From the NCBI GenBank assembly GCA_965231915.1, contig OZ246892.1, forward strand, positions 2,443,247 through 2,507,246: a stretch of 64,000 nt of DNA. The letters run 5' to 3'. The stretch comes from Acidimicrobiales bacterium (lineage in GTDB: Bacteria > Actinomycetota > Acidimicrobiia > Acidimicrobiales > Bin134). The notes beneath the pieces are model-generated. The model did not search any database and had not been told where the DNA came from. It saw only the letters and a program-made list of their open reading frames with translations. A program made the translations under genes and the position numbers. Positions 35,523-44,955 of this stretch are shown piece by piece; positions within the stretch are counted from its first letter, which is position 1, and every line of letters starts with the position of its first letter.

Positions 35523-35771
35523 TTAAAGCCGCTCTGGAACCCCAAGGAACTCTGCTGACTTGGTCAAGCTGGCCATTAGTGCATCTTGAGTGAATGACAC
35601 TGTCAGGTCAGCAAGCACGCCTTCGCATTCTGCCCACTCCGTGATCATGGCCAAGAGCTCTTCCAGGTCGTCCGAACCACCGGTGAATCCAATGTCGTCC
35701 TCAGCCCACCAACGGACGCCATCATCTTGGTTGAGGTGTATTCGCACTTGGTGCTTCATTCCTTCGAGCAC
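35523..35771 (-). CDS. HicB-like antitoxin (tentative)
   Basis: Immediately downstream of hicA. MKHQVRIHLNQDDGVRWWAEDDIGFTGGSDDLEELLAMITEW resembles HicB/DUF1902 N-domains. Confidence 0.55.
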   Translation of the reverse strand: MLEGMKHQVRIHLNQDDGVRWWAEDDIGFTGGSDDLEELLAMITEWAECEGVLADLTVSFTQDALMASLTKSAEFLGVPERL

Positions 35772-35781
35772 TCCTTACCAT

Positions 35782-36021
35782 CTACAGCAACTGCCGTATC
35801 TCGTCGTCGGTCAATCCAGCCCGCTCCACCAGCATATGCCGAAGCGCCCAGGGGGGAACTTCAGACCGGTCATGGAACGCGAACCCAATCGGCAAGCGCC
35901 CCTCCGCAACCAGTTTGCGATGTGATCCCCTTTGCCGCTCAATCCGGTATCCAATGCTCCTGAGCATTCTCAGCACCGTACGCGCCTTCAGCGCAGGAAA
36001 GTGGGACGACGGGATGGGCAT
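35782..36021 (-). CDS. hicA: HicA family mRNA-interferase toxin
   Basis: 79 aa. KARTVLRMLRSIGYRIERQRGSHRKL. Confidence 0.8.
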   Translation of the reverse strand: MPIPSSHFPALKARTVLRMLRSIGYRIERQRGSHRKLVAEGRLPIGFAFHDRSEVPPWALRHMLVERAGLTDDEIRQLL

Positions 36022-36162: not shown

Positions 36163-36269
36163 GTGTATCAAGGAGCCAGTGTCGTTCGAAAGGGTTTTCG
36201 GCTTGCTCGCCATCCCCAGCAGGGTGAAGAGCGCAAGGCTCAACTCGCCGCTGCCTAGGCTTGGTCCTG

Positions 36270-37124
36270 ATGGGAAAGATCGTTTTCGGTGACAACCTGC
36301 CGGTCTTGCGGGGCTTGTCCGACGGCAGCGTTGACCTCATCTATGTCGACCCGCCGTTCAACACCGGCAAGCGCCAAGAGCGCGAGCGGATCAAGACGGT
36401 GCATGACGAGGCCAACGGCGATCGAACAGGCTTCGCCGGTCGCCGCTACCAGACCATCCGCCTGGGCAAGTCTGGCTACGAAGACGCCTTCGACGACTAC
36501 ATGGCCTTCCTGGCTCCCCGCTTCGAGGAGGCCCACCGAGTGCTGGCCGACAACGGCAGTTTCTTCCTCCACATCGACTACCGGGAGGTCCACTACTGCA
36601 AGGTGCTTCTCGACCAGATCTTCGGCCGAGAGTCGTTCATGAACGAGATCATCTGGGCCTACGACTACGGCGCCCGCTCCAAGAGGAAGTGGTCAGCCAA
36701 GCACGACAGCATCCTGTGGTACGCCAAAGACCCTGCTGACTACACATTCTGCTTCGAGGAGATGGACCGGATCCCCTACATGGCCCCTGGTCTAGTAGGC
36801 AAGGAGAAGGCCGCCCGCGGCAAGACTCCCACCGACGTGTGGTGGCACACCATCGTGAGCCCCAACGGGAAAGAGAAAACCGGCTACGCCACCCAGAAGC
36901 CCCTCGGCGTCCTCGAACGTCTGGTGAAAGTCCACTCCCGCCCAGGCGACCTGTTGCTCGACTTCTTCGCCGGCAGCGGCACCCTCGGCGAAGCCGCCGC
37001 CAAACACGGCCGCGACTACCTCCTCATCGACAACAACCCCGAAGCCATCCAAGTCATGATCCAGCGCCTCGCCCCCACCAATCCCGAACTCATCGGCTGC
37101 GACGCTCTACTCGGAACGCCGTAG
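36270..37124 (+). CDS. beta-class N6-adenine or N4-cytosine DNA methyltransferase
   Basis: Motif IV DLIYVDPPFN lies N-terminal to motif I LLDFFAGSGTLGEAA. An alternative TTG start lies at 36261. Confidence 0.9.
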   Translation: MGKIVFGDNLPVLRGLSDGSVDLIYVDPPFNTGKRQERERIKTVHDEANGDRTGFAGRRYQTIRLGKSGYEDAFDDYMAFLAPRFEEAHRVLADNGSFFLHIDYREVHYCKVLLDQIFGRESFMNEIIWAYDYGARSKRKWSAKHDSILWYAKDPADYTFCFEEMDRIPYMAPGLVGKEKAARGKTPTDVWWHTIVSPNGKEKTGYATQKPLGVLERLVKVHSRPGDLLLDFFAGSGTLGEAAAKHGRDYLLIDNNPEAIQVMIQRLAPTNPELIGCDALLGTP

Positions 37125-37716: not shown

Positions 37717-39438
37717 ATGGCTCGACCCGCTGTACGCGAGTACAAAGTCGCGCATCGGCGGTCTGATCCGCTGCACCTTGATCCACACCCTGACACACCG
37801 GAGGAATCTGACTGGAGCGATTGGGTGCAGGGGTTGACTGCGCCGATCGCGGTCGATTTGTTTTGCGGAGCCGGAGGATTGAGTTGCGGGCTTGAGGCTG
37901 CTGGGTGGCAGGTTGTGCTGGCTGCTGACAGCGACGAGTGGGCATTGGAAAGCCATGGGCACAATGTGGCTGGACGGGCTCTGCACCTCGACTTGAGCGA
38001 ACAGCGGGATCGCGATGCGCTAGTAGAGGTCCTCGATGGCGTCGATGTGGGGCTTGTCGCTGGCGGGCCACCTTGCCAGCCCTTCTCGCGGGCAGGTCAC
38101 TCCAAGATCCGAAGCCTTGTCCAACAGGGAGTCCGAAGCGGTGAAGACTCCCGCCGTGAGCTTTGGCGAGCATTCCTGGAGATAGTGGAGGCGGTTCGGC
38201 CGCACGCGGTGCTCATGGAGAATGTGCCAGACATGGCGCTTGGAGACGGTTTTACCGTGTTGCGCAAGATGATCGAGCGTCTCGGCAAGGCTGGATATGA
38301 GGCCGAGGCAAGGATTGTGGATACTTGGCGTTTTGGCGTTCCACAACACCGGCAGCGGCTGATTCTGGTTGGCCTGAGGAACGGGGCTGTATTCGCGTGG
38401 CCCGGTGAATCGGCCCAAGCAACAGTGCGCGACGCGATCTGGGATCTACCGCGCCTTCATGTGGCGCCTAATACCCAGATCGGAGCATCAGAAATGGGTT
38501 ATGGGGCCGCCGCAGCATGTCGCGATGGTCATCCCTCAGCAATGGGAGAGGCGGCTGGCAACGGCGCTGCCCCATTGAGCGGCTTTGCCGCACAAGCTCG
38601 TGAAAGATGCGCAGGAGACAACCCGGGAATTGTCTACGACCACCAGACGCGTGCCGTGCGCGCTGATGACTTTGAGGCGTTCAAGCTCATGGACGGCCAC
38701 ACGCTGTATTCAGATTTGCCTGAGTCCTTGAAGCGCTACAGAGATGACATTTTCGACGACAAGTACAACCGACTTGACTGGGACAAGCTTTCCCGGACGA
38801 TCACGGCGCATATAGCAAAGGACGGCTACTGGTACATCCATCCTGAGCAGCCCCGGACCCTCACCGTCCGGGAGGCTGCCCGCCTCCAGACGTTTCCCGA
38901 CACGTTCCGATTCGCCGGATATCGGTCTCATCAGTTCCAACAGATCGGCAACGCTGTGCCCCCAGTGCTAGGGCAGATAATCGGGAAGGCAATCCTCTAT
39001 AGCCTGCGTGTCCAACCAACTCGCAAAGATCCGCAACCCTCGACTACTGCACTACGCAGCAGGTTCAGAGAGTCAGTACAGCGCTGGACCGACGAAGACC
39101 CTGTTGCAAAGCGAGTAGCGGCCTCACTGGCTAAGGGAGAAGGAAGACACGGCCAGCGGTGGACTGACCTGTTGAATGGCCCCGAGAGCGGGATAGTGGC
39201 ATCGGCTCCAGCCCTGCGCGTGGCATCAAGGGTTTCAGGTGCTGCCAACGAGGGCAGACTCCATAGGTCAACAGCACAGATGGAGTTGGCACAGTTAGTT
39301 GGCATCAGCGGACAAGCCAGGAAGCTCAACATCGCATCACATGTCCTCGGAACAGAAGTCTGCAAACCCGCTATTCCTCTATGCGACAAGTGCCCCGTCT
39401 CGGACATTTGCGCCGAATCCTCGGACGCTGAGCTTTGA
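37717..39438 (+). CDS. DNA (cytosine-5)-methyltransferase with a 143-aa C-terminal extension ending in an EndoIII/MutY-type Fe-S cluster loop
   Basis: Motifs I DLFCGAGG, IV GGPPCQPFS, VI ENV, VIII QHRQRL and X GNAVPP. The extension contains LAQLVGISGQARKLNIASHVLG and C-x6-C-x2-C-x5-C (CKPAIPLCDKCPVSDIC). Confidence 0.9.
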   Translation: MARPAVREYKVAHRRSDPLHLDPHPDTPEESDWSDWVQGLTAPIAVDLFCGAGGLSCGLEAAGWQVVLAADSDEWALESHGHNVAGRALHLDLSEQRDRDALVEVLDGVDVGLVAGGPPCQPFSRAGHSKIRSLVQQGVRSGEDSRRELWRAFLEIVEAVRPHAVLMENVPDMALGDGFTVLRKMIERLGKAGYEAEARIVDTWRFGVPQHRQRLILVGLRNGAVFAWPGESAQATVRDAIWDLPRLHVAPNTQIGASEMGYGAAAACRDGHPSAMGEAAGNGAAPLSGFAAQARERCAGDNPGIVYDHQTRAVRADDFEAFKLMDGHTLYSDLPESLKRYRDDIFDDKYNRLDWDKLSRTITAHIAKDGYWYIHPEQPRTLTVREAARLQTFPDTFRFAGYRSHQFQQIGNAVPPVLGQIIGKAILYSLRVQPTRKDPQPSTTALRSRFRESVQRWTDEDPVAKRVAASLAKGEGRHGQRWTDLLNGPESGIVASAPALRVASRVSGAANEGRLHRSTAQMELAQLVGISGQARKLNIASHVLGTEVCKPAIPLCDKCPVSDICAESSDAEL

Positions 39439-41636
39439 CTCTCACGAACGATCCACAGCGCACGGGACTGCGGTTCCGCCCTCGCGCCCGCCTGATGAAC
39501 ACTTTGGGACGCGAGCTGATCAGCAGCGATACGGTCGCGCTAGCCGAACTAGTCAAGAACTCCTATGACGCTGGCTCCAGTCTTGTGCTGGTTCGCATTT
39601 CCGGAGAAGTCGATGCGGATGGGGCGATCACACCTGACACAGGCACTATTAGCGTCCTAGATGACGGGCACGGAATGGACGAAGAACGGATAATCGGCAC
39701 CTGGCTAGAACCTGCCACCTCGTTCAGGAACGAGCGCGACCCGCTGCAAAATGGGCGGCGTGTGCTCGGAGAGAAGGGTGTCGGCAGGTTTGCGGCTGCC
39801 AAGCTGGGCAACATATTGAATCTGACTTCCAAAACCGCCGATGGTGAAGAAGTCCGGCTAGGACTGGATTGGCGAGCCTTCAATGATGACTCCAAATATC
39901 TGGAGGACATCGGAATCGACTTGTTAGTTGGCAGCACTGGTGTTTTTGCGCAGGATGGGGATGCCGAACGAACATGGCGGGAGCAGTCCGACTTCAGACA
40001 CGACGACCGAATCCGACCCACTCTTGGGCAAGGCACGCTAATCGAAATAGCAGGCCTCCACAGCCGGTGGAACCCAACGCTGGCCATAGCCGTACATCGG
40101 GCGCTCTCAAGGCTTGTAAGCCCTTTCGCAGAGGAACGCGGAGTAGGCGATGGTTTCAGGATATTCCTCGAGATCCCCGATGATCTTGGCCCTCATAGCG
40201 GGGCGGTCACATCAGATGACCTGCTAAAGCAAAGCCATTACAGCCTTAGCGCCGAAGTTGAGGCCGACGGGCAAGCCACAGTTCTGCTCACCCTGAAAGA
40301 CCGAAGTGAACGTGAACAGGAACTTATCCTGAGTCCCAGCCACGATAGCGAGGTGCTCAGATGTGGCCCGTTCGAGGTGTTCTTGTACGTCTGGGACCGC
40401 GATGCCGACTCCATGAGCAGCCTGGCCGAATACTTCGGTGAAAAGAAACTAGCTAGAGATGCGTTGGACGCAGCATCAGGCGTGAACATCTACCGCGACG
40501 AGTTCCGGGTCCTACCCTACGGTGAGATAGGAGATGACTGGCTGGGTCTAGACGCTCGAAGAGTCCAAAATCCGACGATGCGCCTGTCGAATAACCAGAT
40601 AGTGGGGTACGTCCTCATAGGCCGCGACGGAAACCCGGATCTTGTAGATCAGTCCAACAGAGAACGAATAGTCGAAACCCCAGCTTTCGCAGATCTCCGC
40701 GAAGCCGTCAAACAACTTCTAGGAATCATCGAGACGGAACGATTCAAGTTTCGCCCGAGGCAGCCGAAGAAGAGACGTGGCAGTCTGTTTGACCCGATTG
40801 ATCTAGAGCCACTGCGTGAGGCCGTTTCCGAGTTGGCACCGCACGATGAACAAATTCAAGGATTGGTTGACAAGGCTCAAAGTGATTTTGATGAACAACT
40901 CAAACATGCGGGCGAAGCACTATCCAGATACCATCGCCTGGCCACATTGGGGAGACTCACTGATATGGTCGTCCATGAGTTGGCCCAGCCGATTTTCGCA
41001 ATCAGGCAAACTGCTTCACTGAGCATGGCCAAACTTGACGACGTTCCCAACCAGGATCAGGGTGACATCCTAGAAGACATTGATGCCAACTTCAGCAGGA
41101 TAAAAGACCAAGCCGACATTGCAAACACCGTCGTGAGGCGCATCGAACCGTTCGGTGGCAGACAACGAGGCCGACCAGCTAGTCATATTGCAGAAGACGC
41201 CATCCGCAACACAATCGACCTACTCTCCTCTCAGATATCTGATGCTAAAGCGAAAGTCAACTTGCCGACAACGACACACCAGGTAACAATTGATAAAGGT
41301 GAGTTTCAGGAAATCCTCATCAACTTGCTTGACAACAGTCTCTACTGGTTGAAGCAATCTAAGGCAACACTAAGAGAGATCAGCGTGTCAGCAGAAAGAC
41401 ACGATGACGGCAGCCTGTCCATCGTAGTTGAGGACTCTGGACCAGGCATCTCTGATGAGCACAGAGACCTGATTTTCCAGCCGTACTTCTCTACAAAAGC
41501 CGACGGGGTCGGACTAGGTTTGGCCATTGCAGGAGAAATAGTCGAAGATTACTACGGAGGAAGTCTGGAGTTGCTACCACCCGGGCCGCTCGGAGGATCA
41601 AGGTTTAGGGCAACACTTAAAAAGCGAGTCAACTGA
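39435..41636 (+). CDS. cytoplasmic hybrid protein: N-terminal MORC/HATPase_c_3-like GHKL ATPase module plus C-terminal HisKA/HATPase_c histidine kinase
   Basis: N-terminal Bergerat motifs: ELVKNSYDAG, VLDDGHGM, GEKGVGRFAAAKLG. C-terminal H-box VVHELAQPIFAI, N-box LINLLDNSLYW, G1 VEDSGPGI, F IFQPYFSTK and G2 GVGLGLAIA. No TM segment. The TTG start overlaps the dcm stop; an alternative ATG lies at 39495. Confidence 0.85.
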   Translation: MTLTNDPQRTGLRFRPRARLMNTLGRELISSDTVALAELVKNSYDAGSSLVLVRISGEVDADGAITPDTGTISVLDDGHGMDEERIIGTWLEPATSFRNERDPLQNGRRVLGEKGVGRFAAAKLGNILNLTSKTADGEEVRLGLDWRAFNDDSKYLEDIGIDLLVGSTGVFAQDGDAERTWREQSDFRHDDRIRPTLGQGTLIEIAGLHSRWNPTLAIAVHRALSRLVSPFAEERGVGDGFRIFLEIPDDLGPHSGAVTSDDLLKQSHYSLSAEVEADGQATVLLTLKDRSEREQELILSPSHDSEVLRCGPFEVFLYVWDRDADSMSSLAEYFGEKKLARDALDAASGVNIYRDEFRVLPYGEIGDDWLGLDARRVQNPTMRLSNNQIVGYVLIGRDGNPDLVDQSNRERIVETPAFADLREAVKQLLGIIETERFKFRPRQPKKRRGSLFDPIDLEPLREAVSELAPHDEQIQGLVDKAQSDFDEQLKHAGEALSRYHRLATLGRLTDMVVHELAQPIFAIRQTASLSMAKLDDVPNQDQGDILEDIDANFSRIKDQADIANTVVRRIEPFGGRQRGRPASHIAEDAIRNTIDLLSSQISDAKAKVNLPTTTHQVTIDKGEFQEILINLLDNSLYWLKQSKATLREISVSAERHDDGSLSIVVEDSGPGISDEHRDLIFQPYFSTKADGVGLGLAIAGEIVEDYYGGSLELLPPGPLGGSRFRATLKKRVN

Positions 41637-41654: not shown

Positions 41655-42791
41655 TTGGGAGCTGCGTGGCATATTTTGGTAGTTGATGATAACGAAGGAG
41701 TTGCAAAAGACACTGCTGAACTCTTGCATCTAAAATTGAACGCAGATTCACCGACAGGACGTATTATCGCCATGCCAGAAAGCTCCTTCGACAAAGCTTT
41801 GGAGAGGCTTGATCGGGGTGGCATTGACCTACTTGTCTTAGATGTTATTCAACAAGGAGAAATGACACCAAGATCAGAAGAAGAACTCAGAGGCATCGAT
41901 GTATTTGAGCAAGTGCGTGCCACACGGTTTCTCCCAATTGTGTTCCTAACTGCGCTCCCGAACGAGGTCGAACATTACAAGAACCCCCCTTTCGTGCATG
42001 TGGTATCTAAGCAGACAGATGACTTCAATGAAGAATTGGCCCAATGCATATCGGAATGCTTGAATTCCCTGTTTCCACGACTTTCTAGAGAACTACAGAA
42101 CCACATTGATCACGTATCTCGCGACTTTATGATCGAGTTTGTGGAAGAGAATTGGAATGAGTTGAGCGACAACGAAGAAGATATAGCCCATCTGCTGATG
42201 AGAAGACTGGGCGTCTCTTTCGACAATGGCGGCAATCTCTTTGAAGACAGATCTGAAGACTCCACGTCCCTGTTAGGAAAAGTCCCGCCAATTCGCCATT
42301 ACATCGTCCCCCCACCTAAAGAGTTCAGAATGGGCGACGTCTTAAGGCTCCCAGATGAGAGTGGCAGCAGTGAGACTGCAAATAATTGGTACGTCATCAT
42401 GACACCGAGCTGCGACTTGGCCAACGACAAAGCCGACTCGGTAATATTGGCCGAATGCGTTGGAATTAGCGCATTCAATGAGTATAAACAATGGCTAGAG
42501 AGTAGAAGCAGCTCTGCACGAAAGAATTTGACGCGTTTGCTTAGATCAAATCCAAGCGGTGGTCAACAATACCGTTACTACTATCTGCCGAAGGCGTGGA
42601 AGCTACCAGATTTGATTGTCGATCTTCAAAAGATCTTGCACATAGCCTATGAGAACCTTAACAACTACGAGAAGATCGCATCGATTGATAGTCCCTACGC
42701 TGAATCTCTATCACAACAGTTTCTCAGCTATATCGGACGTATTGGTACGCCTGACCTAGATATTGATCTTGCCATAGATCGAATGTCTTGA
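41655..42791 (+). CDS. response-regulator receiver (REC) domain fused to an uncharacterised ~240-aa output domain
   Basis: ILVVDDN, phospho-acceptor context IDLLVLDV, IVFLTA and HVVSKQ form a complete REC signature. I cannot assign the remainder to a family. This is the most AT-rich gene in the window. It starts 18 nt after the kinase stop, with AGGA upstream of a TTG start. Confidence 0.85.
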   Translation: MGAAWHILVVDDNEGVAKDTAELLHLKLNADSPTGRIIAMPESSFDKALERLDRGGIDLLVLDVIQQGEMTPRSEEELRGIDVFEQVRATRFLPIVFLTALPNEVEHYKNPPFVHVVSKQTDDFNEELAQCISECLNSLFPRLSRELQNHIDHVSRDFMIEFVEENWNELSDNEEDIAHLLMRRLGVSFDNGGNLFEDRSEDSTSLLGKVPPIRHYIVPPPKEFRMGDVLRLPDESGSSETANNWYVIMTPSCDLANDKADSVILAECVGISAFNEYKQWLESRSSSARKNLTRLLRSNPSGGQQYRYYYLPKAWKLPDLIVDLQKILHIAYENLNNYEKIASIDSPYAESLSQQFLSYIGRIGTPDLDIDLAIDRMS

Positions 42792-43047: not shown

Positions 43048-44067
43048 CTAATGCCTCGGCGTCAGATTTCGATAGTCCCCCTGGAAGACATGCTCGTGAT
43101 GCCATTCCAAGTACGAGTTTCCAGGGCGCTGCCCTCGCTTGGGAACAACCAACTTTGGCCTCAGGGCCTGGCCAAAGTACTGGTCGACTCCGGGATCAGC
43201 ACGACTGCTTGCCTCCAGTTTGGGGGATTGGTGGACCCTGAGGCCCCCGTTCACAGTAATCAGCCCTGTGTCAAAAGCAGCGTCATGAGTCGGGCAGGCT
43301 GCTACGCCGTTGCGAAAGTCCAACCGCTCATTGTCATCGCACGCTGCCCAGGGCTTGATGTGTGAGGCCACCAGGAGCTTGTTGCCCCTAAGCCTTTTGG
43401 GTGCAAATCCGCAAAAACCGCATGTGTAGCTAAAGTTTTCAAGCACTATCGTTGCGAATCTGTGCTGGCCGTTGCGAATCTTTTGCTCGACGACTCGTTC
43501 TGTTTCACCTACGTCTACCAGATGACGACCTCGTTGCTGGGCAACCATACTGGTCACCACCCTCAACAAATCCTGATGATTCAATTCGTCTTGACCCAAT
43601 AGATCAGCATAATCGAGTCCTTCCAGCATCAGAAAGTCCGGTAGTTTCTGAGTGGTAATTCCCAATTCTCGTGCTGCCGAGAGTACCTGGTTGTAGAGCT
43701 GCGTGAACAGGTTAGGATCTCTCCTCATAGCGGCGTAGAAATCTGGCTCGAATTTTCCGCCCCGATTCCTAGACCCTCCTTCCAGGTTCATCATCTTGTG
43801 AGTGATCGAAGTCGACGGCCTGACAAACAGCTCTGCGAGCTCATGCACCAGCGGCGGGGCGTTACGAATGGACTCGCTCCCATATTTGTGGGGATCGTCG
43901 ACGACCTGGAAGAGTCCATAGCACAAGATGGCTTCTACCGGCGTGAACGGCTCCTGACGAGGTTTCGGCTGGCGGCGAAGTATCTGGCTCCACTGCGATC
44001 GAGCCTGCTCGACTGTGAGGTCGAGGTAGTCGCTCAGCGATCGCACCCTGCCAACGTAGCCGGCCAC
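43048..44067 (-). CDS. HNH endonuclease (HNH_2-type) with an uncharacterised ~210-aa N-terminal region
   Basis: CGFCGF...LLVASHIKPWAACDDNERLDFRNGVAACPTHDAAFDTGLITV. Confidence 0.85.
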   Translation of the reverse strand: MAGYVGRVRSLSDYLDLTVEQARSQWSQILRRQPKPRQEPFTPVEAILCYGLFQVVDDPHKYGSESIRNAPPLVHELAELFVRPSTSITHKMMNLEGGSRNRGGKFEPDFYAAMRRDPNLFTQLYNQVLSAARELGITTQKLPDFLMLEGLDYADLLGQDELNHQDLLRVVTSMVAQQRGRHLVDVGETERVVEQKIRNGQHRFATIVLENFSYTCGFCGFAPKRLRGNKLLVASHIKPWAACDDNERLDFRNGVAACPTHDAAFDTGLITVNGGLRVHQSPKLEASSRADPGVDQYFGQALRPKLVVPKRGQRPGNSYLEWHHEHVFQGDYRNLTPRH

Positions 44068-44166: not shown

Positions 44167-44955
44167 ATGCCCGTGCTTGCACTCAAACCGGCAACCACCA
44201 CCTCTTCTCTGGTGGCCCGGTACACCCGAGCTCTAGTCATGCCCGAAGTCGCAGTCAGGCTCCCCGCGGTGACGGTGATGGAGTCCGGGATCACCCGCGT
44301 GCCCGTCGGGCGTGTCTCAGGGGAGCGCTTGTACCAGTCAGAGCACTTCTTCTTTTGGATGACGGTGATCGAGAACCTCCCCGAGTACACCTTCCAGCGA
44401 GCCTTGAGCTACGCCGACCCCGATAACGTCGAAGAGCTCGCTCAGTTAGCAGGCAGGCTCCGGCTTGAGTCGGTGGAACCTGGCAACTGGTACCCCACCG
44501 AAGAAGACGCGACGGCTCTCTTCTCAAGGTCAGGCGGCTTCGAAGGAGTCCAAGTCACAAAGCAGTCGACTATGGACACGCCGGAGGGGGCCAAGTGCAC
44601 TGCGATGATCTGGTTCACTCCTGACACCCTGGAGAAGATGAGCCTTGCGCTGCTGGCCGCAGCGTATCGGGAAGCAAACGAACAGGGGTACAAGCCGATC
44701 AGCGCTGAAATTGCTGAAGTGGTGCTCCCAGTGGCCAAGCAAATGGATCGATTCGCTGGGTCCGCAGTATTCATGCCGGATACCAGCTACGGGCTTGGAG
44801 GACTGCTGGAAGCCCGTCACGCCCTCAGAATCGGGTCGATCTCTGTACCGAAATCCAGGCTCGCGGAACTCGACGACATCATTTCAACCCATGGCGAGCA
44901 ATACCGCGAATATCTCGGTGGGCGTGATGCCTACGGTCTGACTGTCCGGGTATAA
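44167..44955 (+). CDS. hypothetical protein; start uncertain (candidates 44278 and 44359)
   Basis: Long ORF with a plausible composition from about MTVIENLPEYTFQRAL onward. No family recognised. Confidence 0.4.
   Translation: MPVLALKPATTTSSLVARYTRALVMPEVAVRLPAVTVMESGITRVPVGRVSGERLYQSEHFFFWMTVIENLPEYTFQRALSYADPDNVEELAQLAGRLRLESVEPGNWYPTEEDATALFSRSGGFEGVQVTKQSTMDTPEGAKCTAMIWFTPDTLEKMSLALLAAAYREANEQGYKPISAEIAEVVLPVAKQMDRFAGSAVFMPDTSYGLGGLLEARHALRIGSISVPKSRLAELDDIISTHGEQYREYLGGRDAYGLTVRV

What the first reader, a model, noticed from the sequence alone, without database searches (positions are those of the whole stretch)
42060..42791. Orphan output domain of the receiver protein (residues ~136-378)
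After the REC domain the protein continues with a helical stretch (SRDFMIEFVEENWNELSDNEEDIAHLLMRRLG). A beta-rich module then follows, with conserved-looking blocks: RMGDVLRLPDESG, NWYVIMTPSCDLAND, SVILAECVG, YRYYYLPKAW, LIVDLQKILHIAYENL and SPYAESLSQQFLSYIGRIGTPD.

I recognise no HTH, nuclease, TIR, PNP, cyclase or protease catalytic motif. The G-D-V...hydrophobic-strand...D layout is only loosely reminiscent of SH3-like-barrel toxin folds (MazF/CcdB style). I cannot claim homology. If the pair is a defence system, this domain is the effector.
Basis: inference. Interest (0 to 1): 0.65.

Follow-up and report, generated by a model that had tools for sequence, protein, structure and literature searches.

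The report
MazF-fold output domain, restriction-linked response regulator
The unannotated C-terminal half of this response regulator is predicted to have the fold of MazF/PemK toxins but lacks their catalytic residues, and it sits in a widespread, uncharacterised cassette that pairs a cytosine DNA methylase with a MutL/MORC-like histidine kinase where a restriction enzyme would normally be.

Summary
Window 41655-42791 (+) encodes a 378-aa protein with an intact receiver domain, a conserved helical hairpin (residues ~139-195) and a ~175-residue beta-rich domain (~205-378).

No Pfam, NCBIfam, PADLOC or PDB sequence model recognises the C-domain. A confident AlphaFold model of it (pLDDT 86.8) matches only MazF/PemK/EndoA toxins at the top of Foldseek searches.

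MazF's catalytic Arg and Thr positions are not conserved. The family has its own signature instead: T-P-S-C-D with an invariant Cys253, plus Cys268, Arg307, Asp323-x-Gln325, Asp345 and Arg362-x-Gly364.

The gene is operon-coupled to a soluble histidine kinase whose N-terminus is a paraMORC/MutL-like GHKL ATPase. A C5 DNA methylase lies next to the pair in at least 31 of 38 evaluable genomes, usually with Vsr or an HhH-GPD glycosylase. This holds across many bacterial phyla and on conjugative plasmids.

Best reading (inferred, about 0.5): a restriction-modification-like module in which His514-to-Asp63 phosphotransfer switches on a MazF-fold effector. The gene pair was described computationally in 2021. 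The output domain was not.

The parts
41655..42791 (+). Response-regulator gene (378 aa, TTG start; stop included): REC + helical hairpin + MazF-fold domain
   Evidence: ORF and translation. 123 homologues, nearly all full length. AF2 pLDDT 89.6. AAAGGA lies 9 nt upstream of the TTG.
41667..42059 (+). Receiver (REC) domain, residues ~5-135. D11/D12, D63 (codon 41841-41843), T99 and K119 are all conserved.
   Evidence: Weak Pfam PF00072 hit. Foldseek top hits are REC domains. Column counts: D12 90/90, D63 90/90, T/S99 90/90, K119 89/90. DLLVLDV verified.
42069..42239 (+). Conserved helical hairpin linker, residues ~139-195 (R156, F162, V163, W167, R183, R184, L185 near-invariant)
   Evidence: DSSP on the AF2 model gives helices 139-170 and 174-195. 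Conservation.
42267..42788 (+). MazF/PemK-fold beta-barrel domain, residues ~205-378 (the finding proper)
   Evidence: AF2 of residues 200-378: pLDDT 86.8, pTM 0.79. Foldseek PDB: best 9g2a_B MazF at E 9e-5, target TM 0.63-0.74, top 42 hits all MazF/PemK/EndoA/MoxT. BFVD top hits are PemK-like.
42402..42419 (+). T-P-S-C-D-L signature (T250-L255). Cys253 is the most conserved residue of the whole superfamily.
   Evidence: Translation. P251, C253 and D254 are 90/90. The Cys is kept in remote plasmid homologues and in the divergent clade.
42477..42542 (+). Two-helix insert (residues 275-296) between barrel strands; absent in MazF and in the divergent sister clade
   Evidence: DSSP helices 275-283 and 286-296. 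hhalign gap opposite this region.
42735..42761 (+). G-R-I-G-T-P-D-L-D block (G361-D369) after the C-terminal helix. R362 is invariant; the tail is acidic.
   Evidence: Column counts. R-x-G is retained in all remote members.
39435..41636 (+). Cognate soluble histidine kinase (733 aa). Contains an N-terminal paraMORC/MutL-like GHKL ATPase (residues 21-154; 39495-39896), a conserved central region (residues 349-410; 40479-40664), a DHp with His514 (codon 40974-40976) and a CA domain (residues 622-730; 41298-41624).
   Evidence: Pfam HATPase_c_3, HisKA and HATPase_c. NCBIfam BbrUII/HgiDII restriction-enzyme N-terminus and HK models. Invariant E38, N42, D45, D76xGxG80, H514, N630, N634, D667xGxG671. 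The profile matches FixL-type HK cores and the Hsp90/MutL N-domain in the PDB. The HK lies immediately upstream of the RR in 35/38 genomes, often with a 4-nt overlap.
37717..39438 (+). C5 cytosine DNA methylase (573 aa) with a C-terminal HhH/[4Fe-4S] MutY/EndoIII-like module (residues ~500-570; 39214-39426). Its stop overlaps the HK start.
   Evidence: PF00145 at 1.3e-55. TIGR00675 dcm, and a mutY match at residues 501-568. Homologous C5 MTases adjoin the HK-RR pair in at least 31/38 genomes.
43048..44067 (-). HNH_2 endonuclease-like gene, convergent with the RR gene. A recurrent but non-core neighbour.
   Evidence: PF13391. PADLOC HNH at 1.3e-27. NCBIfam PT-DNA restriction-like. Also present in L006/L008, L009, L026, L108 and the P0119 contig, but in only 3/38 genomes.

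Best explanation
Residues ~205-378 are a divergent member, at fold level, of the CcdB/MazF (PemK/Kid) toxin superfamily. The domain is fused through a conserved helical hairpin to a fully functional-looking receiver domain.

The protein is the response-regulator half of a dedicated, translationally coupled two-component pair. The kinase is cytoplasmic, and its 'sensor' is a MutL/MORC-like GHKL ATPase. The pair occupies the slot of the restriction enzyme next to a C5 DNA methylase, which usually comes with a T:G repair function (Vsr or an HhH glycosylase).

Proposed mechanism. Steps 1-3 are inferred; the parts list is shown.
1. The paraMORC-type ATPase module engages DNA that lacks the methylase's mark, or senses another infection- or loss-of-methylation cue, and activates the C-terminal kinase core.
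2. His514 is phosphorylated and passes the phosphoryl group to Asp63 of the receiver.
3. Receiver phosphorylation, probably by driving dimerisation (MazF toxins act as dimers), or by releasing the acidic C-terminal tail or the hairpin, switches on the MazF-fold domain. That domain then damages nucleic acid. RNA is the default expectation from the fold. The result is growth arrest or exclusion of unmodified DNA.

The domain does not use MazF's Arg/Thr chemistry. Its own invariant Cys253-Asp254, Cys268, Arg307, Asp323/Gln325, Asp345 and Arg362 must form the functional site.
For: Fold:
- AF2 model of residues 200-378 has pLDDT 86.8.
- Foldseek against the PDB gives 22 hits at E<=1e-3. The first 42 ranks are exclusively MazF/PemK/EndoA/MoxT from several species (target TM 0.63-0.74), followed by CptN.
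- BFVD top hits are PemK-like endoribonucleases.
- Local sequence correspondences agree: G-D in strand 1, (T/S)-P after strand 2, and the strand 3 register (hhalign).

Signalling competence:
- REC residues D11/D12, D63, T99 and K119 are conserved, as is the kinase H-box His514.
- The N, G1 and G2 boxes and the N-terminal GHKL motifs are all invariant or nearly so.
- HK and RR genes are adjacent in 35/38 genomes, with a 4-nt overlap in 22 of the 49 loci where both ORFs could be delimited.

Context:
- A C5 MTase lies within 3 kb in at least 31/38 GTDB representative genomes, and Vsr or HhH-GPD in 26/38.
- The same cassette is found around homologues of only 23-26% identity and on Campylobacter, Bacillus, Acaryochloris and Hymenobacter plasmids.
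- No other nuclease is conserved in the cassette; HNH_2 occurs in 3/38.
- The island has low GC and lies among HicA, MTases and a PADLOC candidate ATPase.
- In the closest relative that lost the MTase to IS elements, the kinase has also lost its N-terminal 158 residues.

Domain status: the domain occurs essentially only in the REC-X architecture, as expected for a dedicated output domain.
Against: - No activity has been shown for any member.
- The MazF catalytic Arg and Thr positions are variable in this family. There is no sequence-profile match to PemK_toxin. hhalign to four MazF/Kid sequences is weak (P=0.003, probability 10%). Homology, as opposed to fold convergence, is therefore not proven, and RNase chemistry cannot be assumed.
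- An SH3-like barrel can also be a binding module.
- A minority of loci have the HK-RR pair with no methylase within reach (L026, L028, L001). That is awkward for a strict restriction-modification reading unless the methylase is elsewhere or the trigger is something else.
- The kinase has a large conserved central region (residues ~155-470) of unknown fold that could itself hold the effector activity.
- I could not map the conserved residues onto the 3D model, because the tools do not give access to the coordinates.
Confidence: 0.5

Rival explanations
1. The C-domain is the DNA-cleaving (restriction) subunit. It would be a new metal-dependent or Cys-dependent DNase built on a MazF-like barrel, recruited and licensed by the paraMORC kinase at unmethylated sites. 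The cassette would then be a true restriction-modification system with a phospho-gated nuclease.
For: - The cassette looks like a C5 type II R-M operon in every respect except the nuclease.
- The kinase N-terminus matches the N-terminus of the BbrUII/HgiDII restriction-enzyme family, and paraMORCs are R-M associated (PMC2292703).
- The domain has many conserved acidic residues (D228, D254, D323, D345, E350, D367, D369) plus two Cys and two Arg, more like a metal site than MazF's metal-free site.
- MazF's own catalytic residues are gone.
Against: - To my knowledge no member of the CcdB/MazF fold is a DNase. MazF chemistry needs a 2'-OH.
- No recognisable nuclease motif is present.
- Some loci lack a methylase.
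- Nothing here shows DNA binding.
Confidence: 0.2
2. The C-domain is not catalytic. It would be a binding or adaptor output that regulates something else. Candidates are the kinase's own ATPase/clamp, the methylase, or expression of the R-M genes, which is the 'regulatory two-component system controlling R-M' idea of Bellieny-Rabelo et al. The real effector would be the kinase's central region, or accessory nucleases such as HNH_2 or Vsr.
For: - The authors of PMC8011034 proposed a regulatory role.
- The kinase has a strongly conserved central block of unknown function, YRDxFRVLPYG...DWL..RRVQNP...NNQ...DQSNRE.
- HNH_2 genes recur next to the pair.
- Related kinases pair with SF2-helicase-like proteins or with REC-only proteins instead of REC-X.
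- The MazF catalytic residues are absent.
Against: - The domain carries about 20 invariant or near-invariant polar residues, including a Cys kept over extreme divergence. That is more typical of an active site than of a protein-protein interface.
- HNH_2 is present in only 3/38 genomes.
- Vsr is interchangeable with an HhH glycosylase, which points to deamination repair rather than restriction.
- No HTH or other DNA-binding output is present.
Confidence: 0.2
3. The C-domain is a CcdB-like poison of a host enzyme (for example gyrase or topoisomerase) rather than a nuclease, released on phosphorylation.
For: - CcdB shares the MazF fold (established knowledge).
- Loss of the MazF catalytic residues fits a non-enzymatic poison.
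- The partner kinase carries a GHKL ATPase domain of the kind found in gyrase B.
Against: - No CcdB structure appears among the top 50 Foldseek hits, which are all RNase-type members.
- A stoichiometric poison rarely needs an invariant Cys/Asp/Arg constellation.
Confidence: 0.05

Closest known systems
MazF / PemK / Kid / EndoA type II toxins (CcdB/MazF superfamily)
   Same: - Predicted fold: an SH3-like barrel with a short helix after strand 2 and a C-terminal helix. These toxins are the exclusive top Foldseek matches.
- G-D in strand 1 and (T/S)-P after strand 2 line up.
   Different: - No sequence-profile match.
- The catalytic Arg and Thr positions are not conserved.
- A 2-residue insertion creates the invariant S-C-D. 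There is an extra two-helix insert and an extra G-R-x-G-T-P-D-L-D tail.
- There is no antitoxin gene. Control is by a fused receiver domain. The domain is about 175 residues versus about 110.
TCS-like elements linked to R-M systems and paraMORC ATPases (Response_reg_2 PF19192 / HEF_HK PF19191; Bellieny-Rabelo et al. 2021, PMC8011034)
   Same: - Same operon logic: C5 methylase (plus or minus Vsr or HNH_2), then a soluble kinase with N-terminal HATPase_c_3, a DHp and a C-terminal HATPase_c, then an adjacent RR-like gene.
- The genera overlap (Hymenobacter, enterobacteria).
- A divergent 405-477 aa RR-like clade, found here next to kinase homologues, shares the C-domain (hhalign probability 94%, E 1e-7).
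   Different: - The window proteins and all relatives tested hit PF00072/HisKA, not PF19192/PF19191. Formal membership is therefore unconfirmed.
- That paper characterised only the REC-like and DHp-like parts and did not analyse the RR's C-terminal domain.
Detocs (DtcA kinase - DtcB buffer - DtcC REC-effector; bioRxiv 10.1101/2023.01.24.525353)
   Same: A defence logic in which a histidine kinase phosphorylates a receiver fused to a toxic effector domain.
   Different: - No PADLOC match and no DtcB-like Hpt gene.
- The sensor is a GHKL/MORC ATPase.
- A DNA methylase is part of the cassette.
- The effector fold is MazF-like rather than PNP.
GHKL-containing type II restriction enzymes (BbrUII/HgiDII family, NCBIfam NF050001) and paraMORC R-M systems (Iyer et al. 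2008, PMC2292703)
   Same: An N-terminal MutL/MORC-like ATPase associated with C5 methylases and Vsr.
   Different: Only the first ~125 residues match. Here the ATPase is fused to a histidine-kinase core, and the putative effector is on a separate phospho-accepting protein. Iyer et al. do not mention receivers.

Membership tests
CcdB/MazF (PemK/Kid) toxin superfamily | SH3-like beta-barrel fold with C-terminal helix | tested here: met
   AF2 model has pLDDT 86.8. Foldseek against the PDB puts only MazF/PemK toxins in the top 42, with E down to 9e-5 and target TM 0.63-0.74. BFVD hits are PemK-like. This rests on a predicted structure, not a solved one.
CcdB/MazF (PemK/Kid) toxin superfamily | Sequence-profile match to PemK_toxin (PF02452) or CcdB | tested here: not met
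   No Pfam hit for 37 C-domains even at E<=10, nor for 90+106 full-length members. hhalign against 4 MazF/Kid sequences gives P=0.003 and probability 10% over 40 columns only. A deeper MazF profile could not be built.
CcdB/MazF (PemK/Kid) toxin superfamily | MazF catalytic Arg (start of strand 2) and Thr/Ser (end of strand 3) | tested here: not met
   In the hhalign register, R25 aligns to window N244 (variable: G/R/N/T) and T48 aligns to V269 (V/L/I/T). The mapping rests on a weak alignment.
CcdB/MazF (PemK/Kid) toxin superfamily | Cognate antitoxin gene immediately upstream (MazE/PemI/CcdA) | tested here: not met
   The domain is fused to REC, and the upstream gene is the kinase in 35/38 genomes. 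There is no small antitoxin ORF in the cassette.
CcdB/MazF (PemK/Kid) toxin superfamily | Toxicity / endoribonuclease (or gyrase-poison) activity | not testable with these tools
   Needs expression and biochemical assays.
Response regulators (CheY-like receiver) | Acidic pair, phospho-acceptor Asp, Thr/Ser and Lys at the canonical strand ends; (beta-alpha)5 fold | tested here: met
   D/E11 90/90, D12 90/90, D63 90/90, T/S99 90/90, K119 89/90. Foldseek hits are REC domains. The Pfam score is below the gathering cut-off for the window protein (16.4 vs 30.2 bits), but 70/90 relatives hit PF00072.
R-M-associated TCS-like pair of Bellieny-Rabelo et al. (PF19192/PF19191) | RR-like gene adjacent to a soluble GHKL kinase (HATPase_c_3 + DHp + HATPase_c) next to a C5 methylase | tested here: met
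   Paper description.
R-M-associated TCS-like pair of Bellieny-Rabelo et al. (PF19192/PF19191) | [quoted passage not shown] | tested here: inconclusive
   Neither model hit any protein scanned, including enterobacterial and Hymenobacter plasmid members and the divergent clade. I could not verify that the two models are present in the Pfam copy used.
Type II restriction-modification system | Cognate DNA methylase plus a site-specific DNA endonuclease | tested here: inconclusive
   The methylase is present and conserved. No recognisable endonuclease is conserved in the cassette: HNH_2 occurs in 3/38 genomes, and Vsr/HhH are repair-type. Whether HK+RR cut DNA is unknown.
Detocs | DtcA/DtcB/DtcC profile matches and an Hpt buffer protein | tested here: not met
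   No PADLOC hit for the RR, and only weak unrelated hits for the kinase. There is no third small gene between or after the pair.

The most novel reading that the evidence does not exclude
DNA-methylation status would be read by a MutL/MORC-like ATPase and transduced by a His-Asp phosphorelay into activation of a MazF-fold effector. That effector would have replaced MazF's active site with a new Cys-centred one. This would be a 'two-component restriction' or methylation-gated abortive-infection system. It would also be a new enzyme family (more than 3000 sequence clusters) on the MazF scaffold, and a new class of response-regulator output domain.
Probability: 0.3. Interest if true: 0.85.

Novelty: new variant of a known kind. 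Interest (0 to 1): 0.64.

Why it matters
- **A new kind of regulated toxin.** If the reading is right, this is a widespread restriction-modification-like immune or addiction module with no classical nuclease. Its killing arm would be a phospho-switched MazF-fold protein. That would link three well-studied worlds that are not known to be wired together: two-component signalling, toxin-antitoxin folds and DNA methylation. The module is seen in Actinomycetota, Chloroflexota, Planctomycetota, Acidobacteriota, Cyanobacteria, Bacteroidota, Proteobacteria, Campylobacter conjugative plasmids and one archaeal MAG.
- **A handle on an orphan system.** The gene pair has been known only as a 2021 bioinformatic association. 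This work gives a concrete, testable effector and specific residues to mutate: D63, H514, C253, D254 and R362.
- **An annotation for many proteins.** Thousands of proteins now labelled 'response regulator' or 'hypothetical' would gain a functional annotation.
- **Relevance to MORC biology.** How prokaryotic MORC-like ATPases read epigenetic marks is an open question.

Tried and rejected
1. Foldseek with the full-length model returned only receiver domains. I therefore remodelled residues 200-378 alone.
2. Sequence libraries gave nothing for the C-domain: Pfam, NCBIfam, PADLOC, PHROGs, PDB phmmer and a profile search.
3. My first idea was a PD-(D/E)xK-type nuclease with D254 ... D323-x-Q325. 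I dropped it because the predicted topology and the Foldseek hits are MazF-like, not restriction-endonuclease-like.
4. A C-x5-R phosphatase-like reading of 'SCDLVxGR' was rejected. The Arg is not conserved, and the window itself has SCDLANDKA.
5. I tried to build a deep MazF profile for profile-profile comparison. The big-database search with B. subtilis MazF returned only sequences at least 94% identical, and the fetched loci held a single PemK gene. Only a 4-sequence MazF alignment could be compared.
6. A test for PF19192/PF19191 membership found no hits anywhere.
7. The first related-loci run with the 37-sequence C-domain alignment failed for lack of a conserved stretch. It succeeded with an 11-sequence alignment.
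8. Protein comparison A1 vs A7 failed internally, so I ran hhalign offline instead.
9. No homologue was found in 50,697 phage genomes.
10. A profile of the kinase's central region against the PDB gave no nuclease match.
Full report
**1. The observation**

Window 41655-42791 (+) is a 378-codon ORF with a TTG start. An AAAGGA lies 9 nt upstream of the start, 18 nt after the stop of the preceding gene. The finding's coordinates, 42060-42791, are residues 136-378.

The protein is real and conserved. A 5.8-billion-protein search found 123 relatives at E<=1e-3, nearly all covering 97-100% of the query. In a 90-sequence alignment, Y216, P251, C253, D254, L311, P312, P347 and R362 are invariant. G227, T250, L255, C268, R307, P318, D323, Q325, D345, G364, T365, D367, L368 and D369 are at least 90% conserved.

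A public gene call for this exact protein (P0001, 339 aa, 100% identical) starts 39 residues further in. That would remove the receiver's first strand with D11 and D12. The conserved N-terminus of the homologues supports the TTG start.

**2. Anatomy of the protein**

AlphaFold2 with the 90-sequence alignment gave a confident model (pLDDT 89.6, pTM 0.80). It has three parts:
- a (beta-alpha)5 receiver, residues ~5-135;
- two long helices, 139-170 and 174-195;
- a beta-rich module (strands 228-231, 245-248, 262-270, 308-311, 320-331, 339-344), with helices at 252-256, 275-283, 286-296, 348-362 and 370-377.

The receiver is catalytically complete: D/E11, D12, D63, T/S99 and K119 are conserved in 89-90 of 90 sequences. 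Foldseek with the whole model found only receiver domains.

**3. Fold of the C-domain**

No sequence library recognises the C-domain (Pfam, NCBIfam, PADLOC, PHROGs, PDB sequences). I remodelled residues 200-378 alone, using 37 trimmed homologues (pLDDT 86.8, pTM 0.79).

Foldseek against the PDB gave 22 hits at E<=1e-3. Ranks 1-42 are exclusively MazF, PemK, MoxT or EndoA/YdcE toxins from Staphylococcus, Bacillus, E. coli, Mycobacterium, Klebsiella and Deinococcus. The best E-value is 9e-5, the probability is 1.00, and the target-normalised TM-score is 0.63-0.74. Rank 43 is the type III toxin CptN, which shares the fold. Against predicted viral structures, all of the top 13 with a name (12 of them) are 'PemK-like protein' or 'endoribonuclease'.

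The domain is larger than MazF, about 175 residues versus about 110. The excess is a two-helix insert (275-296) and a C-terminal G-R-I-G-T-P-D-L-D block plus helix.

**4. Is it a MazF?**

Profile-profile comparison with a small MazF/Kid alignment is weak but consistent in register (P=0.003, probability 10%). The B. subtilis MazF sequence in that alignment was checked against PDB 4ME7. R-M-G-D-V aligns with K-R-G-D-V, the Y-V-I-M-T-P strand with P-V-L-V-I-Q, and S-V-I-L-A-E-C-V-G with T-A-I-V-A-A-I-T-A.

In that register, MazF's catalytic Arg25 falls on window N244, a variable column (G/R/N/T). Thr48 falls on V269 (V/L/I/T). S252-C253 are an insertion relative to MazF.

So the domain has the MazF scaffold but not the MazF active site, and it has no antitoxin gene. 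What it has instead is its own constellation: T250-P-S-C253-D254-L, K259, C268, R307, L311-P312, D323-x-Q325, D345-x-P347-(Y/F)-A-E350 and G361-R362-x-G364-T-P-D-L-D369.

**5. Size and spread of the family**

The family is large and architecturally uniform. A C-domain profile searched against 1.84 billion cluster representatives finds 3037 clusters at E<=1e-3, 1323 at E<=1e-10 and 299 at E<=1e-30. The listed top 150 are ~370-400 aa proteins with the domain at ~200-380, or fragments of such proteins.

Remote plasmid-borne members all match the C-domain profile (E 1e-61 to 6e-26) and keep P-x-C-D and R-x-G. These are:
- Acaryochloris pREB1 (34% identity to the window protein);
- a Bacillus plasmid (24%);
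- 39 Campylobacter plasmid records (23%; 40 of the 42 matching plasmid records, mostly Campylobacter, are typed conjugative);
- a Hymenobacter plasmid and an Enterobacter mori plasmid (both ~29% to the Campylobacter protein).

A still more divergent clade of 405-477 aa REC-like proteins lies downstream of kinase homologues. Its members have T-P-x-C-D ... R-(P/Q)-G near the C-terminus. The clade aligns to the C-domain profile with hhalign probability 94% and E 1e-7, and it lacks the helical insert. The Cys is the one residue kept throughout, even where its neighbours change (H-K-C-T, G-E-C-E).

**6. The partner kinase**

The upstream gene (39435-41636, 733 aa) has an N-terminal HATPase_c_3 domain, a HisKA-like DHp and a C-terminal HATPase_c.
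- The N-terminal domain is MutL/MORC/Hsp90-like. It also matches the first ~125 residues of the BbrUII/HgiDII restriction-enzyme family.
- The DHp carries H514 in D-M-V-V-H-E.

In 26 orthologues, both ATPase sites and His514 are invariant or nearly so: E38, N42, D45, D76xGxG80, N630, N634, D667xGxG671 and G691xGxG695.

Residues ~155-470 have no match to known families. They include a strikingly conserved block at 349-410.

The kinase gene abuts the regulator gene in 35 of 38 evaluable GTDB representative genomes. The three exceptions are a frameshifted regulator, a regulator fragment and an interrupted kinase. Among the 49 fetched loci where both ORFs could be delimited, the two genes overlap by 4 nt in 22.

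**7. The cassette**

In the window, the kinase start overlaps the stop of a 573-aa C5 cytosine methylase (PF00145, 1.3e-55). The C-terminus of that methylase resembles the HhH/[4Fe-4S] part of MutY/EndoIII.

The arrangements seen elsewhere are:
- C5 MTase - HK - RR - Vsr (L002, and the contig of P0119, which is only 26% identical);
- C5 MTase - HhH-GPD - HK - RR (L004);
- Vsr - C5 MTase - HK - RR (L005);
- C5 MTase - HK - RR (L007).

Across 38 evaluable genomes found with a protein-pattern scan, a C5 methylase lies within 3 kb in at least 31. Vsr or an HhH-GPD module lies within 3 kb in 26, and HNH_2 in 3. The genomes come from Acidimicrobiia and other Actinomycetota, Chloroflexota, Planctomycetota, Acidobacteriota, Cyanobacteria, Bacteroidota, Gammaproteobacteria, Omnitrophota, Poribacteria and one Methanotrichaceae MAG. 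The plasmid examples show the same trio.

Vsr and HhH glycosylases are interchangeable in these loci. That fits 5-methylcytosine deamination repair rather than restriction (inference from established knowledge of Vsr and of Mig-type T:G glycosylases). The only genes conserved alongside the methylase are the kinase and the regulator. They sit where a restriction enzyme would.

**8. The island in the window**

The region from ~35.5 to 46.1 kb has GC 0.51-0.59 against ~0.65 for the flanks. It holds a HicA toxin, an N4/N6 methylase, the C5 methylase, the kinase, the regulator, a convergent HNH_2 gene, an unknown 262-aa ORF and an AAA_14/DUF4143 ATPase (PADLOC PDC-S01). It is bounded by metabolic genes.

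The closest relative is an Acidimicrobiales MAG (88% identity). There, IS elements replace the methylases, and the kinase lacks its first 158 residues. This is one anecdote consistent with the pair being harmful without the methylase. Several other copies are frameshifted or interrupted (L013, L021, L036, L052, L060), as is common for toxic or defence genes.

**9. Prior knowledge**

Bellieny-Rabelo, Pretorius and Moleleki (2021, PMC8011034) described this type of pair. They called the two parts RR-like 'Response_reg_2' and HK-like 'HEF_HK', the latter with HATPase_c_3 and HATPase_c. They showed its linkage to C5 methylases, Vsr and HNH_2, and proposed a two-component system that regulates R-M systems. 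They analysed only the receiver-like and DHp-like regions and said nothing about the regulator's C-terminal half.

Iyer et al. (2008, PMC2292703) placed paraMORC ATPases in R-M systems but do not mention receivers. I found no experimental follow-up and no description of a MazF-like response-regulator output in the searchable literature.

The two Pfam models named in the 2021 paper never hit any protein I scanned. Formal membership in that family is therefore unconfirmed, even though the architecture and context are the same.

**10. Mechanism**

Shown here:
- a signalling-competent HK-RR pair;
- operon coupling;
- conserved linkage to a C5 methylase;
- a MazF-type predicted fold for the output domain;
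- loss of the MazF catalytic pair and gain of a new invariant Cys/Asp/Arg set.

Inferred:
- The MORC/MutL-like ATPase module is the sensor, most plausibly of DNA lacking the methyl mark.
- It drives His514 autophosphorylation and transfer to Asp63.
- Phosphorylation activates the MazF-fold domain. This could happen by receiver-mediated dimerisation, since MazF toxins function as dimers (established knowledge). It could also happen by displacing the acidic T-P-D-L-D-x-D tail, which is reminiscent of the acidic MazE tail that blocks MazF (speculation).
- The target of the domain, RNA or DNA, is unknown.

I put about 0.5 on 'phospho-switched effector of an R-M-like module'. Within that, RNA cleavage is somewhat more likely than another activity.

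The rivals are:
- a bona fide DNase subunit (0.2);
- a non-catalytic adaptor or regulator, with the effector elsewhere, for example in the kinase's central region or in accessory nucleases (0.2);
- a CcdB-like poison (0.05).

Two observations count against a strict R-M reading:
- A few loci have the pair but no methylase in reach. L026 has HNH_2-HK-RR among metabolic genes. L028 sits between an AIPR gene and ThiF-JAB plus patatin genes.
- Related kinases pair with SF2-helicase-like proteins or with receiver-only proteins.

**11. Verdict**

The domain is best described as a new, large, REC-fused branch of the MazF-fold world with a different conserved site. It is embedded in a known but uncharacterised methylase-linked two-component cassette.

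It is a new variant of known kinds rather than categorically new. Its function is unproven. It is cheaply testable through toxicity assays, phosphotransfer assays, the C253, D63 and H514 mutants, and methylase deletion.

Noticed in passing
window 37717-39438 (C-terminal part ~39214-39426): The C5 methylase carries a C-terminal ~130-aa extension that matches the HhH plus C-x6-C-x2-C-x5-C iron-sulfur loop of MutY/EndoIII. In other loci a separate HhH-GPD gene or a Vsr gene sits in the cassette instead. This suggests a methylase fused to its own T:G-repair (or DNA-binding) module. By eye the usual catalytic Asp position reads A-S-H, so the module may be inactive. That was not tested.
   Followed up: partly
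window 43048-44067 (-) and 44167-44955 (+): An HNH_2 endonuclease-like gene (similar to PT-DNA/type II HNH restriction enzymes) lies convergent with the regulator. It is followed by a 262-aa ORF with no family match. Both are co-conserved with the cassette in L006/L008 and L009. HNH_2 also flanks the pair in L026, L108 and the P0119 contig. Its role is open: a type IV enzyme, or a partner of the N4/N6 methylase at 36261-37124.
   Followed up: partly
window 35523-36021 (-): A HicA toxin gene (35782-36021, PF07927 at 5e-10) lies next to an adjacent 82-aa ORF that no Pfam model recognises and that may be its HicB partner. Together they mark the left edge of the low-GC defence island (~35.5-46.1 kb).
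   Followed up: partly
window 41655-41771: The public gene call for this protein (P0001, 339 aa) starts at an internal Met and omits the first receiver strand with D11/D12. The TTG at 41655 gives the conserved full-length N-terminus.
   Followed up: yes
window 40479-40664 (kinase residues 349-410): A very strongly conserved block, YRDxFRVLPYG..DWL.LD.RRVQNPT.R.SNNQ..G...DQSNRE, sits in the middle of the kinase. It has no Pfam or PDB sequence match. It may be the S5/transducer part of the MORC-like module or an unrecognised catalytic domain.
   Followed up: partly
L100, L105, L110, L113, L119 (metagenome loci): Homologues of the kinase that keep an H-E DHp motif and the CA domain are followed by 1045-1373 aa SF2-helicase-like proteins instead of a response regulator. 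In L138 and L142 they are followed by ~210-aa receiver-only proteins. These are partner-swapped variants of the system.
   Followed up: partly
L006/L008 (Acidimicrobiales MAG, 88% identical regulator): IS110/DDE transposases occupy the place of the methylases, and the kinase is 5'-truncated (it lacks residues 1-158). This looks like a decaying copy in which loss of the methylase coincides with loss of the kinase's ATPase sensor.
   Followed up: partly
L060 (Methanotrichaceae archaeon MAG) and L028 (Dehalococcoidia MAG): The cassette occurs in an archaeal MAG, with the kinase interrupted by ~1.5 kb. In L028 the HK-RR pair has no nearby methylase and lies between an AIPR abortive-infection gene and ThiF-JAB plus patatin genes (CBASS-like accessory and effector genes).
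   Followed up: no
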